Positions 3,092-64,000 of a DNA stretch of 64,000 bases are shown piece by piece. The position numbers and the translations under genes are program-made. How positions within the stretch are numbered: position 1 is the first letter of the stretch; each line of letters starts with the position of its first letter. Under the pieces are notes generated by a model. That model had not been told where the DNA came from. It saw only the letters and a program-made list of their open reading frames with translations, and ran no database searches. The DNA lies in the NCBI GenBank assembly GCA_030264375.1, contig JASCQW010000081.1:40202246-40266245 (forward strand), read 5' to 3'. This DNA comes from Carcharhinus longimanus (lineage: Eukaryota).

Positions 3092-3268
3092 AAAAGCAAA
3101 ACTCTGCAAATGCTGAAAATCTGAAATAAAAACAAAAATGCTGGAAATATGCAGCAGGTCTGGCCGCATCTGTGGAGAGAGAAACAGATTCAAACATTAG
3201 CTTGGTTTTGCCCTCCACAGATGCTGCCAGACCTGCTGAGTACTTCCAGCATTTTCTGTTTTTATTTA
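3092..3268. mobile_element. Fold-back (palindromic) Penelope-derived short repeat, hammerhead centre deleted
   Basis: Inverted arms aaaaatgctggaaatatgcagcaggtctggccgcatctgtggag / ctccacagatgctgccagacctgctgagtacttccagcatttt; right arm resembles the sequence 3' of the ribozyme at 17841-17900. Confidence 0.75.
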
Positions 3269-5210: not shown

Positions 5211-5440
5211 TGATGATTATATCCTTTGAGCCGAGTGCAATGGTGATTTTAATAATGACACTACTTAATTTGCAGTTTTTGCAGCAAGTGATTATTTGGA
5301 TTACTTGTTTGCGGTCTTGAGCACAACCAAAATGAGACAGATACAGTCATACAAACCATAACCATACTGTATGGGGCTGAGAATAGGCTGACAAAGTCCA
5401 TACTGATTCTCAAAATGAACAAGACAAGTTTATGGAAAGA

Positions 5441-5635
5441 AAAATAAAAAATGCTCGAGAAACTCAGCAGGTCTGACAGCATCTGTGGTGAGAGAACAGA
5501 GTCAGCTCTTTCTGAGTCTTCCGGACTTGAAATATCAGCTCTATTCTCTTTCCACAAATGCTGTCAGACCTGCTGAGATTTTTCAGCATTTTCTGTTTTT
5601 GTTTCAGATTCCAGAATCTGCAGTATTTTGCCTTT
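5441..5635. mobile_element. Fold-back Penelope-derived repeat with decayed hammerhead in the centre
   Basis: Inverted arms; centre agct-ctttct-gagtc-ttccg-gactt-gaaat-atc-agct keeps stem II and GAAA but has lost CTGATGA. Confidence 0.75.
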
Positions 5636-12869: not shown

Positions 12870-13585
12870 AAACAGAAACACAAAGGGACTTGAGGGTCCT
12901 TGTTCAGGATTCTCTTAAGATTCACGCACAGGTTCAGTTGGCAGTTAGGAAGACAAATGCAATGTTAGCATTCATGTCGAGAGGGCTAGAACACAAGCAC
13001 AGGTTTGCACTTCAGAGGCTGTACAAGGCTCTGGACAGACCCCACTTGAAGCACTGTGAGCAGTCCTGGGCCCCGTATCTAAGGAAGGATGTACTGGCCT
13101 TGGAAAAGGTCCAGAGCAGGTTCACAAGAATGATCTCTGGAATGAAGAGCTTGTCGTATGTAGAACGTTTGAGGACTCTGGGTCTGTGCTTGTTGGAGTT
13201 TAGAAGGATGAGGGGGGATCTCATTGAAACTTACAGGATATTGCGAAGCCTGGATAGGGTGGACGTGGAGAGGATGTTTCCACTCAAATGAAAAACTAGA
13301 ACCAGAGGGCATAACATCAAGCAAAAGGGACAATCCTTTAGAACAGAGATGAGAAGGAATTTCTTCAGCCAGAGAGTGGTGAATCTGTCAAACTCTTTGC
13401 TGCAGAAGTCTGTGGAAGTGGGTCATTGACTGTCTTCAAGACAGAGATAAATAGATTCTTGATTAATAAGGGGATAATAATGGCGAAAAAGAATGGGTAT
13501 GAGAAAAATATCAGCCATGATTAAATGGCAGAGCAGACTCGATGGGTTACGTGGCTTAATTCTGCCCCCAATGTCTTTTGGTCTT
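12870..13585 (+). mobile_element. CR1 (HER1-like) LINE, 5'-truncated 3' end, relatively young
   Basis: ORF 12890-13291 LYKALDRPHLKHCEQSWAPYLRKDVLALEKVQSRFTRMI..RMRGDLIETYRIL is a CR1 ORF2 C-terminus, followed by a CR1-type 3' UTR. Confidence 0.92.
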
Positions 13586-15689: not shown

Positions 15690-16890
15690 TATGGATTTTG
15701 TGGTTAGCAGCAAAGGAATGTCACTCACTGTTCATTACACCTACACATCCCACAAATCTTGCAGGTTTTTGAGTGACAGCTTATTAGTCCAGGTCTTTTG
15801 TTCCATGAGGAATGTACTCTGGAAGTACCTCAGAAGATGCATTGGGGACCCCTTGGAAGTACCCATGTAAGGTCTACAAGGAAATTGCCCGGGATTTTTC
15901 AACTTCCAGTGGACAATTGCTGAGTCTGGAACCATATAGATGACTTTGAATGATTCTGACTTACTTAGCAGAATAGCTACCCAGGAAAAAGTTAAAAGGA
16001 TTCAGACCAATTCTAACTCCTTGATAACTAATGATCCCCTCTACTGGACCTCCCTGACTACTTCCCCTGACTTTCCCCATGACTAACCCCCTACTGCTGA
16101 CCACCTGACTGCCCACTGCCCTCCCAACCACCCACGCCACCTCCCTCCCCATTTACTATAATCCCACCCCTGACTTCCATCACTACATGACCAAACACTC
16201 CCTGACTTTAATCTGGAGCTCCACATTTCTTGCCCAAACTTCTCAACCAGGCCTCTTTACAAATGTGGAGCACAACTGTTTCTGGAGGCCTTCAGTGCAA
16301 GGCAGGGTGATAAGGGGATATGAAATTATCTGTCATAAACTGAGAAGTTTAAATGCACCAGCACTTTGACAAGTCAGGACAGAGGAGGCAAATGGCTGAG
16401 GGAGCAGGGTCATCTGACCCCTTTTGATCACCCAACCCTCTGCAGCCTCCAATTATCCTCCAACATTCCTCTCAACCCTCTATTCCGACAACCATGGCCT
16501 GACACCTCAACTTCCCCCTAACCCCACAAGTATCAACACCCTCCTGACCACTGGCCCCCAACTACCCCCTGCACCCTACAACCACCCAACTGCATCCGAC
16601 GATCTCCCGACTCCCAACAGCCCCTGACTAACCCTCTGACTCCATGACTAACCTTCCAACCACCCAAACTCCCTCCAATCACTCCCCATCTAACACTACC
16701 CTTCACACCCCCAAATAACCTCCTGAACCCTCAACATCACCATGACTAACCACCTGACCCCACAACAATACCCCCAACCCAAAAACTATTCCCCACCTCA
16801 CTCTGCAGAAGATACAACCTATTGTATTTAGAGATTCTTTTTCAGCATTCACCTTGTATCAAAGATCTGTGACGAACATGCGCAGGGTAT
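15690..16890. mobile_element. Degenerate non-autonomous DNA-element-like region with C-rich low-complexity core
   Basis: Starts ggtatggattttg (TIR-like); cccctgac/cccaac-type decayed tandem units at 16030-16800. Confidence 0.4.
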
Positions 16891-17393: not shown

Positions 17394-17493
17394 NNNNNNN
17401 NNNNNNNNNNNNNNNNNNNNNNNNNNNNNNNNNNNNNNNNNNNNNNNNNNNNNNNNNNNNNNNNNNNNNNNNNNNNNNNNNNNNNNNNNNNNN
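17394..17493. other. Assembly gap (100 N)
   Basis: N run. Confidence 1.
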
Positions 17494-17565
17494 AAGGTCC
17501 AGAGCAGGTTCACAAGAATGATCTCTGGAATGAAGAGCTTGTCGTATGAGGAACAGTTGAGGACT
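17494..17565 (+). mobile_element. CR1 ORF2 fragment
   Basis: KVQSRFTRMISGMKSLSYEEQLRT; near-identical to 13106-13177. Confidence 0.85.
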
Positions 17566-17599
17566 ATGTTACCTGTTTCAGGTTGTCCACTGACACACT

Positions 17600-17902
17600 G
17601 GTTACTTTTGTTCTTCCATTTACACTTGCTGATTTCTTAATATGCCGCTATCAGCACTCGTGTTAACCACGATCAGCACCATCAACATTCCCTTTGTCTT
17701 TTTGTCTAAGACATCTTTGTCAATCTCTCTTGCCTCCACCACTCACTAGCCCTCTATCCAGCTCCACAGCTTCCTGCCTCCTCACCATTTCAATTGTCTT
17801 CAGCTCTGATGAAGAGTCATCCAGACTCGAAACGTCAGCTCTCTTCACTCTCCATAGATGCTGTCGGACCTGCTGGGATTTTCCAGCACTTTTTATTTAT
17901 GT
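17600..17902 (+). mobile_element. Penelope-like element terminal (pseudo-LTR) fragment
   Basis: Pyrimidine-rich leader, then hammerhead, then ctccatagatgctgtcggacctgctgggattttccagcact arm shared with the fold-back repeats. Confidence 0.7.
17802..17840 (+). ncRNA. Minimal type I hammerhead ribozyme
   Basis: Stem I AGCT, CTGATGA core, extra A, stem II GAGTC/atcca/GACTC, GAAAC, GTC cleavage triplet, stem I' AGCT; palindromic ACGT in place of stem III. Confidence 0.8.
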
Positions 17903-18242
17903 TGCAATGGAAGAACTACTTGCTCTTCTTCAAATAACACTAGGGGATTTTTTGTTTCAAAAGGAATGACTGTTTACTATTTTAGAGACACTGAGGCCAC
18001 AATCTTCTAATTTTCAAATCAGACTAGTTTTTAATTTTAGGGTAAACTACATGGATCGTGGATATCAAAAATTACCATGTCATTCAGCTTTCAAGTAGGA
18101 AACTATAAAGAGTTTGTGAGAGCCATCCGTCCTGTCTGAGAACATGTTCTACACATCCAATTTAAGCTAGAGGTGGAATCCAATGAAATACAGTGCCTTA
18201 GACTCATAAGATTTTGAAAAATTTAATCTTAGTCACTAATAA

Positions 18243-40635: not shown

Positions 40636-40738
40636 AACTCAAAATGTCAGCTCTTTTCTCTCCCTACAGATGCTTCCAGACCTGCTGAGATTTTCTCTTT
40701 CGGTTTCAAATTCCAGCATCTGCAGTAATTTGCTTTTA
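40636..40738 (+). mobile_element. Half of a Penelope-derived fold-back repeat
   Basis: actcaaaatgtcagctct...acagatgcttccagacctgctgag...ccagcatctgcagtaatttgctttt. Confidence 0.7.
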
Positions 40739-43829: not shown

Positions 43830-43937
43830 TTCCTGTTCAGTTCAAGCAAATGGTCATCAGCTTGAAACATTAACTCTGTCACTCCCTAAATGCTGCCTGA
43901 GTTGCTGGACTATTTCCAGTATTTTCTGATTTTATTT
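43830..43937 (+). mobile_element. Decayed half of a Penelope-derived hammerhead repeat
   Basis: ggtcatcagcttgaaacattaactctg...tatttccagtattttctg. Confidence 0.55.
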
Positions 43938-53648: not shown

Positions 53649-53805
53649 CAAAAGCAAAATCTTACTGATGCCGGAAATCTGAAATAGGAACAAATAAAAG
53701 ACTCAGCAGGTCAAGCAGCATCAGTGAAGGGAAGAGTTAACATTTCAGGTCAATGACCTGAGAGGATGATGCCCAACCTGTTGAGTTTTTCAAGTTTTAT
53801 TGTTC
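53649..53805. mobile_element. Decayed fold-back Penelope-derived repeat
   Basis: actcagcaggtcaagcagcatc / gatgcccaacctgttgagt arms; centre gttaacatttcaggtcaatgacct is a reversed stem II plus GAAA. Confidence 0.65.
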
Positions 53806-57917: not shown

Positions 57918-58012
57918 ATAAAAGGTAACTGGCCCGAAACTTTAATTCTGTTCCTCACTTCACATACACTGCATGACCTGATGAACATTTCCAGCATTTT
58001 TCATTTTCATTT
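57918..58012 (+). mobile_element. Decayed half of a Penelope-derived hammerhead repeat
   Basis: ggcccgaaactttaattctg...tgacctgatgaacatttccagcatttt. Confidence 0.55.
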
Positions 58013-58309
58013 CTGTTATAGTCCAACTGATTTGACTGTTGGAGTTATAATGGGATATGGTAGAAACTTCAAGAAAATTCAGACTGCTTGGTTTAAAAAA
58101 GACTGAATTCCAATTCACTTATTATGCAATTGAATACAAGAATAGTCATCATATAATGAAATAACTAACTTTTAAAATTTAAAAAAAAGCTAATAATGTC
58201 TAAACTTTCCACCTGGTATTACTTTAGACTCTGCAAATAAAGGATTTATTATGAGTGAGTTACCATCAGTGCTAAAATAACGCTTTTTGGAATATCTTGG
58301 TCTAAGAGT

Positions 58310-63892: not shown

Positions 63893-64000
63893 GCAAAATG
63901 TTCTGGATGATAGCAATCTGCAAATCAAGACAGAAAATGTTGGAAATACTCAGTGCACTAGGTAGTAACTGTAGAGAGAGAAACAGAGTTAATGTTTCAG
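63893..64000. mobile_element. Left arm of a Penelope-derived fold-back repeat (runs off the window)
   Basis: acagaaaatgttggaaatactcag...gagagagaaacagagttaatgtttcag. Confidence 0.65.

What the first reader, a model, noticed from the sequence alone, without database searches (positions are those of the whole stretch)
17802..17840. Minimal type I hammerhead ribozyme with a complete core in a Penelope-like terminal repeat
Seen: AGCT(17802-05) CTGATGA(17806-12) A GAGTC-atcca-GACTC(17814-28) GAAAC GTC AGCT(17837-40). All catalytic-core nucleotides are present, with a perfect 5-bp stem II, a 4-bp stem I and a GUC triplet (predicted cut after 17836). Stem III is reduced to the palindrome ACGT. Established: Penelope-like elements carry minimal hammerheads with very short palindromic stem III that work best as dimers. 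Inference: this is the only copy in the window that could still cleave, if transcribed on the + strand and paired with a second copy.
Basis: partly seen in the sequence, partly recalled or inferred. Interest (0 to 1): 0.7.

Follow-up and report, generated by a model that had tools for sequence, protein, structure and literature searches.

The report
Fossil Penelope hammerhead, promoterless solo copy
This is a real, intact small self-cutting RNA motif of a known kind in a broken solo copy of a very common shark-type jumping gene, and it likely does nothing here; its sister copies suggest that the jumping gene's RNA likely starts at the motif's first letter and was mostly copied back into DNA uncut.

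Summary
The motif is exactly as described: a minimal type I hammerhead with no loop III. It lies in a solo, 5'-truncated 3' pseudo-LTR (about 17565-17906) of a Neptune-like Penelope family; relatives carry RT and GIY-YIG upstream, and the genome holds roughly 10^5 fragments. The class is published (Cervera and De la Pena 2014).

This copy is probably a neutral fossil. Its TATA box is deleted, no intact same-strand partner lies within 104 kb, and a competing hairpin is predicted to be more stable. Its GUC-AGCU ending is rare (4 of 293 intact C3-G8 copies). Across copies the core decays about as fast as loop bases, and CpG decay destroys it freely.

Selection shows only between subfamilies: 293 intact C3-G8 against 724 intact U3-A8 copies.

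The better result is at family level. TATAAA lies 30 nt before the hammerhead's first base. Of 129 flank-selected copies, 54 begin at that base and only 5 near the cut site. The RNA therefore likely starts at the ribozyme and is mostly reverse-transcribed uncut, as reported in vitro for an anole element. Neither cleavage nor transcription was tested.

The parts
17565..17906 (+). Solo, 5'-truncated 3' pseudo-LTR fragment of a Neptune-like Penelope element, without ORF and without the optional tail. It matches about 165-480 nt downstream of the endonuclease stop in longer copies.
   Evidence: BLAST to 29 relatives, homology from 17564-17569 to about 17906; position relative to the GIY-YIG stop; 3' end classes
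17802..17840 (+). Minimal type I hammerhead: 4-bp stem I, core C3-U4-G5-A6-U7-G8-A9, extra A, 5-bp stem II with 5-nt loop, G12-A13-A14-A15.1, no loop III, C17
   Evidence: Sequence; descriptor 1 match against 1 in 300 shuffles
17802..17805 (+). Stem I 5' strand. Its A is +1, the inferred transcription start of intact family members.
   Evidence: TATAAA starts at -30 or -29 in 9 long reference copies; 54 of 129 copies begin at -3..+6; the start site itself is inferred
17814..17828 (+). Stem II and loop, closed by G10.1-C11.1; A10.2-U11.2 here, G-U in most relatives
17832..17835 (+). Palindrome ACGT (A15.1, C15.2, G16.2, U16.1). It can form stem III only between two molecules or two copies.
   Evidence: sequence; dimer model from PMC4209133
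17836..17837 (+). Predicted cleavage site after C17
   Evidence: hammerhead numbering (established knowledge); not tested
17776..17786 (+). Scar of a deletion of about 24 nt that removed the TATAAA box (exact placement ambiguous)
   Evidence: alignment with 11 close relatives: 8 keep a TATAAA-like hexamer (<=1 mismatch) at -25 to -36; orthologous contigs in three other runs show no large gap against the window here, so they lack it too
17806..17838 (+). Competing hairpin: CUGAUG (17806-11) with CGUCAG (17833-38), stacked on stem II
   Evidence: similar competing folds are predicted for 5 other copies
17494..17565 (+). Abutting fragment of another LINE (CR1/L2-like, label recalled), next to a 100-N assembly gap; not part of the element
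   Evidence: 93% identical to 13106-13180; loose ends

Best explanation
The 39 bases are a complete minimal hammerhead motif inside a truncated, promoterless solo end of a Penelope-like retrotransposon, and this copy likely never cuts in the cell. Shown: the motif, the family link, the lost TATA box, the missing partner and the decay pattern. Inferred model for the active parent elements: (1) a TATA promoter in the pseudo-LTR starts RNA at the first base of stem I. (2) Reverse transcription starts inside the RNA, at about +100 or +137. (3) On an RNA that begins at +1 it runs off after 100-140 nt, which yields the many short copies that begin at the ribozyme. On a read-through RNA it continues upstream and yields longer copies like this one. 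(4) Most integrated copies therefore came from RNA not cut at +35. (5) The ribozyme would cut only when two copies pair through ACGU, as in tandem read-through RNA, probably with help from the element's protein. Selection kept the core in parent elements only; inserted copies decay neutrally, and this one kept its core by chance.
For: Family link: GIY-YIG frames lie about 370-410 nt upstream of the motif in relatives; 22 of 30 endonuclease-selected loci have a hit to this element downstream. L136 carries RT, then endonuclease, then a hammerhead-type repeat. RT relatives are from rays and sharks, and one 955-aa homolog has RVT_1 plus a weak GIY-YIG hit. Neutral decay: non-CpG core substitutions 18/246 against loop and flank 19/213 (p=0.61) in the C3-G8 set, and 19/344 against 26/302 (p=0.16) in the U3-A8 set; CpG positions are 43% and 29% changed. 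The C7-G8 CpG gives 146 harmless U7 copies against 192 C3-A8 mismatch copies. A strict core survives in 0 of 30 and 3 of 44 covering copies. Neutral expectation at 6-10% divergence is 44-192 intact C3-G8 copies (observed 293) and 350-1602 U3-A8 copies (observed 724). Parent-level constraint: C3-G8 293, U3-A8 724, C3-A8 192, U3-G8 50. 5' ends: 54 of 129 at -3..+6, 5 of 129 at +33..+39, 26 extending past -10. No shared sequence upstream of 53 short copies. TSD-like repeats in 5 of 33 short copies against 0.33 in controls. 3' ends fall in two groups, about +95-105 and +135-140. This matches the two RT starts and unprocessed substrate in PMC11167929.
Against: No cleavage or transcription data. The observed 293 intact C3-G8 copies exceed even the top of my crude neutral range (192), so some selection on copies is not excluded; age differences among copies would also do this. 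Core substitution rates are slightly lower than loop rates in both sets, though not significantly. The motif is identical in one orthologous locus about 1.8% diverged; by hand arithmetic that happens about half the time by chance. No extra G from a cap is seen before +1 (4 of 32). The 3-8 change is probably one historical event counted many times. Stem I covariation is unclear: 130 U-A against 68 C-A copies. Drosophila Penelope has a TATA-less internal promoter (PMC2377424). All flank-selected copies come from one contig, and I did not remove copies of other subfamilies from the 129.
Confidence: 0.8

Rival explanations
1. This copy is a functional or co-opted ribozyme that cuts a host or read-through + strand transcript, pairing in trans with one of about a thousand intact family copies.
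For: Complete core, perfect stems and the favourable GUC triplet. The insertion is present in four other runs, and the motif is unchanged in at least one. At least 1017 intact cores exist genome-wide.
Against: TATA deleted; no cis partner; competing hairpin 3.3 kcal/mol more stable. Minimal hammerheads show no monomer activity and low dimer activity (PMC4209133). No Pfam-matching frame among 246 frames of 62 aa or more in the window, although short exons would be missed.
Confidence: 0.07
2. Copies pile up at +1 because AG|CT is a splice acceptor, or because RT stalls at the base of the hairpin, and not because transcription starts there.
For: A pyrimidine tract and YAG precede +3. In D. virilis Penelope the intron ends at the 5' end of helix I (PMC4209133). 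No cap-G signature. A long hairpin spans +1 to +39.
Against: TATAAA sits at the canonical -30 in both subfamilies. Upstream sequences of 53 short copies share nothing, so there is no common first exon. Some carry TSD-like repeats ending 0-7 nt from the junction. A stalling RT would be expected to stop at the 3' base of the hairpin, near +39, where ends are scarce (inference).
Confidence: 0.2
3. The family's hammerhead cuts efficiently and the RNA is re-joined into circles before reverse transcription, so copies run seamlessly across the cut site.
For: Proposed in PMC4209133. It would explain long copies such as this one, and the 3-8 pair is kept between subfamilies.
Against: Circles have no end at +1 and cannot explain the 54 of 129 copies that begin there. 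Ribozyme mutants did not affect insertion by the anole element in vitro (PMC11167929).
Confidence: 0.15
4. The motif is a chance match.
For: No Rfam hammerhead hit; the predicted minimum-energy fold differs.
Against: 1 match in 300 shuffled windows; hundreds of exact family matches with 0 controls; fixed place in a Penelope repeat.
Confidence: 0.01

Closest known systems
Minimal hammerheads (min-HHR) in pseudo-LTRs of metazoan Penelope-like elements (Cervera and De la Pena 2014, PMC4209133; parts 1-2 of 4 read: abstract, results, discussion, start of methods)
   Same: Type I, 4-bp stem I, extra base between 9 and 10.1, G10.1-C11.1, palindromic 15.2-16.2, mostly solo truncated copies. A U3-A8 core variant is also described there, in Schistosoma.
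   Different: Stem II is 5 bp here, against 7-8 bp in Schistosoma. Cartilaginous fish are not named in the parts I read; supplements were not read. In this genome U3-A8 is the larger intact class. A TATA box at -30 and copy ends at +1 are not mentioned in those parts.
PAc, the Poseidon element of Anolis carolinensis (Frangieh et al. 2024, PMC11167929; parts 1-2 of 4 read: main text and start of methods)
   Same: Hammerhead in the pseudo-LTR, two internal RT start points that define an optional tail, unprocessed RNA as the main substrate, no reads ending at the cut site.
   Different: PAc is Poseidon clade and its ORF starts in stem II. The family here has a Neptune/Nematis-type linker zinc finger, and no long ORF was seen starting in the motif.
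Neptune/Nematis-clade EN+ Penelope-like elements (described in 10.1101/2021.04.23.441226; passages read)
   Same: DKG motif, RT, CX2-5CxxC linker, C-terminal GIY-YIG with cysteines between the two half-motifs, 5' truncation, inverted arms, 30-40 bp tail.
   Different: Clade not tested by a tree; all ORF copies seen are broken.
Non-LTR retrozymes (10.64898/2026.07.22.740005; part 1 of 5 and passages read)
   Same: Type I hammerhead related to Penelope pseudo-LTRs; reported in one chondrichthyan.
   Different: Retrozymes are tandem arrays; this copy is solo.

Membership tests
Minimal type I hammerhead of Penelope-like elements | Core C3-U4-G5-A6-N7-G8-A9, G12-A13-A14, A15.1-U16.1, H17 | tested here: met
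Minimal type I hammerhead of Penelope-like elements | Stem I of 4-5 bp, stem II closed by G10.1-C11.1, extra base after A9, palindromic 15.2-16.2 with no or tiny loop III | tested here: met
Minimal type I hammerhead of Penelope-like elements | Compensatory changes across the family | tested here: inconclusive
   3-8 pair: C-G 293, U-A 724, C-A 192, U-G 50, probably one event. Stem II reads AGGTC/GACCT in an older subfamily (by eye). Stem I is unclear, 130 against 68.
Minimal type I hammerhead of Penelope-like elements | Self-cleavage as a dimer | not testable with these tools
   Needs an in vitro assay; nearest-neighbour energies do not score the catalytic core.
EN+ Penelope-like element | RT followed by C-terminal GIY-YIG upstream of the pseudo-LTR in family members | tested here: met
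   Pfam hits on the broken fragments are weak (RVT_1 E=0.006, GIY-YIG E=0.018). Homolog P0019 has RVT_1 E=2e-9 and GIY-YIG E=0.002.
EN+ Penelope-like element | 5' truncation, inverted arms, optional 30-40 bp tail | tested here: met
   30 of 129 copies with an inverted arm; two 3' end classes about 35-40 nt apart
Neptune/Nematis clade | CX2-5CxxC zinc finger between RT and endonuclease | tested here: met
   CNHRRCxxC-type motif in alignment A1; definition
Neptune/Nematis clade | Placement in an RT tree | not tested
   no named reference sequences were at hand
Non-LTR retrozyme | Tandem units, each with a hammerhead | tested here: not met
   no tandem repeat at the site; no same-strand partner
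Rfam hammerhead families | Match to a covariance model | tested here: not met
   no hit at E<=5

The most novel reading that the evidence does not exclude
Shark Neptune-type elements use a TATA promoter that makes the hammerhead the first 39 bases of the RNA. The genome's stubs are a fossil 5' RACE: RT starts at +100 or +137 on uncut RNA and runs off at +1, almost never at the cut site. The ribozyme, kept as C3-G8 in one subfamily and U3-A8 in another, would act only on tandem read-through RNA, as a brake or a circularisation switch and not as a routine maturation step.
Probability: 0.55. Interest if true: 0.45.

Novelty: new member of a known kind. Interest (0 to 1): 0.27.

Why it matters
The single copy matters little: it is one of at least a thousand intact cores among about 10^5 decaying fragments. 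The family-level pattern bears on an open question, since the role of hammerheads in endonuclease-bearing Penelope elements is called unclear in 10.1101/2021.04.23.441226. Copy ends at the inferred start site and not at the cut site give genomic support for the in vitro finding that unprocessed RNA is the main substrate. The two natural core versions give a ready pair for a cleavage test.

Tried and rejected
1. Rfam scan: no hammerhead.
2. RNA evidence: no RNA holder listed among 22 runs. This says nothing about expression.
3. Base-level comparison of the motif in more orthologs: not obtained; only bears on it. In runs X6 and X7 some differences, and a 5-base gap in X6, fall in repeat-rich parts and cannot be placed.
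4. Target-site duplication for this copy: TATGTT at 17565 and 17898 was rejected because both places align with element sequence in relatives; there is no longer match at the junctions.
5. Cap-derived extra G before +1: not enriched, 4 of 32. G in place of A at +1 is 11 of 21 (p=0.024), but A-to-G transitions would also give this.
6. Shared first exon upstream of short copies: none among 53.
7. First 5'-end mapping used wrong references and was replaced. Dropped there: 13 of 142 copies cut by assembly gaps. Two pairs (L263, L268) may be assembly duplicates.
8. Stem I covariation: inconclusive.
9. Host gene: 0 Pfam hits in 246 frames.
10. Homolog search with a broken endonuclease frame found nothing at E<=1e-20; PDB search found nothing relevant.
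11. Lunse et al. (PMC5785218) is not held; I saw only its title in a reference list.
12. Paper searches for Penelope + TATA + transcription start + pLTR and Penelope-like + hammerhead + TATA box found 0 papers. Subscription journals, Repbase entries and supplements were not seen, so the promoter reading may already be in print.

Full report
Observation. The motif is a type I hammerhead with a 4-bp stem I (AGCU/AGCU), the full core, one extra A after A9, a 5-bp stem II closed by G10.1-C11.1, and A15.1-C-G-U16.1 with no loop. A descriptor finds it once in the window and once in 300 shuffled windows. Rfam gives no hammerhead at E<=5. The predicted fold of the 39-mer is a competing hairpin, CUGAUG with CGUCAG, at -12.6 kcal/mol against -9.3 for stems I and II alone. 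Five other copies show similar competing folds, so this is a family trait. These energies do not score the catalytic core.

What it sits in. A genome search with 17780-17890 gave 3228 candidates, of which 40 were scored. Homology to the 29 other fetched loci runs from about 17565 to 17906. Three of them carry endonuclease-like frames upstream. A search with one such frame gave 15147 candidates, and 22 of 30 fetched loci have a hit to this element downstream, mostly with the hammerhead about 300-410 nt after the stop. Longer copies show a DKG motif, RT, a cysteine linker and a GIY-YIG domain in that order. Pfam hits on these broken frames are weak. RT homologs come from rays and sharks, and one 955-aa homolog has RVT_1 and a weak GIY-YIG hit. 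The linker finger points to the Neptune/Nematis group by the definition in 10.1101/2021.04.23.441226 (passages); no tree was built. A flank profile found 41 hits in 568 kb of 66 arbitrary stretches, which scales to about 1.7 x 10^5 fragments, counting inverted arms and all subfamilies. The window holds 11 hits; only this one has an intact core.

This copy. It has no ORF and no tail. A deletion of about 24 nt has removed the TATAAA box that 8 of 11 close relatives keep with at most one mismatch. No intact same-strand partner lies from 20 kb before to 20 kb after the window; the scan found only a decayed stub at 5506 and an opposite-strand copy beyond the window end. Only 4 of 293 intact C3-G8 copies end in GTCAGCT, and C17 is seen in 1 of 31 flank-selected copies of that set. 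The favourable triplet is therefore probably a later substitution (inference). The insertion is present in four other runs at roughly 1.5-4% difference. In run X2 two contigs cover the motif with no change. At 1.8% divergence an unchanged 39-mer is expected about half the time (hand arithmetic). No Pfam-matching frame was found among 246 frames in the window.

Are copies under selection? I selected copies by an exact match to the downstream flank only (1545 and 2328 genomic matches) and analysed 70 loci of each set, all from contig C1. Non-CpG core positions change at 7.3% against 8.9% for loop and flank in the C3-G8 set (p=0.61), and 5.5% against 8.6% in the U3-A8 set (p=0.16). CpG positions change at 43% and 29%. 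A strict core survives in 0 of 30 and 3 of 44 covering copies. The CpG at 7-8 gives a natural test: 147 copies keep C7-G8, 146 have the harmless U7, and 192 have the C3-A8 mismatch. Some of the 192 may come from the other subfamily. A rough neutral expectation is 44-192 intact C3-G8 copies against 293 observed, and 350-1602 U3-A8 copies against 724. The first is above range, which age differences or some selection could explain.

Was the parent under selection? Intact-stem copies split as C3-G8 293, U3-A8 724, C3-A8 192 and U3-G8 50. The U3-A8 class is a distinct subfamily with its own loop and flank. The pair thus changed on both sides, but this is probably a single event, so the large counts are not independent. 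The same variant is published for Schistosoma (PMC4209133). An older subfamily reads AGGTC/GACCT in stem II (by eye). Stem I is unclear: 130 copies have U-A and 68 have C-A at pair 2.2-1.2.

Where copies begin and end. Numbering the A at 17802 as +1, the cut is after +35. Of 142 flank-selected copies, 13 were cut by gaps. Of the other 129, 54 begin at -3..+6, 23 at +7..+16, 5 at +33..+39 and 26 extend past -10. Among the 100 ends between -9 and +40, the excess at -3..+6 has p=6e-14 and the deficit at +33..+39 has p=0.003 against a uniform spread. TATAAA starts at -30 or -29 in 9 long reference copies from both subfamilies. The DNA upstream of 53 short copies shares no sequence. Five of 33 show TSD-like repeats against 0.33 in controls, with the downstream copy starting at about +100-105 or +128-138. 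3' ends fall in those same two groups. A cap-derived G was not found. An earlier AI note on this genome also says joins cluster at the ribozyme's edge; that is a lead, not independent support.

How it likely works. In the anole element PAc, RT starts at two internal sites that define the tail, unprocessed RNA is the main substrate, ribozyme mutants still insert, and cleavage needs the protein (PMC11167929, parts 1-2 of 4). Applied here (inference): RNA starts at +1; RT starts at about +100 or +137; it runs off at +1 to give stubs, or continues through a read-through RNA to give longer copies such as this one. Cleavage would need two motifs paired through ACGU; a single minimal hammerhead showed no activity and dimers showed low activity (PMC4209133). 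Cut-and-rejoined circles could explain long copies but not the peak at +1. A splice acceptor at AG|CT remains a rival, because the D. virilis intron ends at helix I and that element's promoter is TATA-less (PMC2377424, passages).

Verdict. The motif is real, of a known class, and most likely an inert fossil at this locus. The TATA box at -30 and the copy ends at +1 were not found in two paper searches, which do not cover subscription journals, Repbase or supplements. I also read passages of PMC6765202 and part 1 of 5 plus passages of 10.64898/2026.07.22.740005. Interest 0.27.

Noticed in passing
window 5431-5628: Fold-back stub of the same family (inverted arm plus a copy truncated inside the hammerhead). 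It gives a weak Rfam MIR1507 hit (29.8 bits against a cut-off of 73), which is only the hairpin.
   Followed up: partly
window 3106-3267, 40637-40730, 43836-43937, 53676-53802, 57935-58017, 63905-64000: Further decayed or truncated stubs of this and older subfamilies; none has an intact core.
   Followed up: yes
genome-wide; L151-L170: A more uniform subfamily with a U3-A8 core and GUC triplet is the largest intact class, with 724 exact matches.
   Followed up: partly
one search matches: A further subfamily reads CTGAAGA with a C-A mismatch in stem I at 2.2-1.2 (by eye).
   Followed up: no
window 17844-17862 and relatives: Downstream of the ribozyme the family has a pyrimidine tract followed by CAG-ATG, which resembles a splice acceptor; the frame from that ATG is short.
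   Followed up: no
L133:944-6211; L137:1775-2826: Complex insertions with several pseudo-LTRs and ORF pieces in both orientations.
   Followed up: no
window 17394-17568: A 100-N gap followed by 75 nt that are 93% identical to the LINE piece at 13106-13180. The junction to the Penelope fragment is real, since orthologous contigs span it.
   Followed up: partly
window 16500-16800: C- and A-rich low-complexity stretch with strong negative GC skew.
   Followed up: no
P0004, P0007, P0012: Ray gene models named as ordinary enzymes (nicotinamide riboside kinase 1, divergent protein kinase 1C, chitinase domain protein 1) contain Penelope RT sequence, probably annotation artefacts or exonised copies.
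   Followed up: no
L047, about 17.4 kb past the window end, minus strand: Nearest near-intact hammerhead; it has the ACGT palindrome changed to ACTT.
   Followed up: partly
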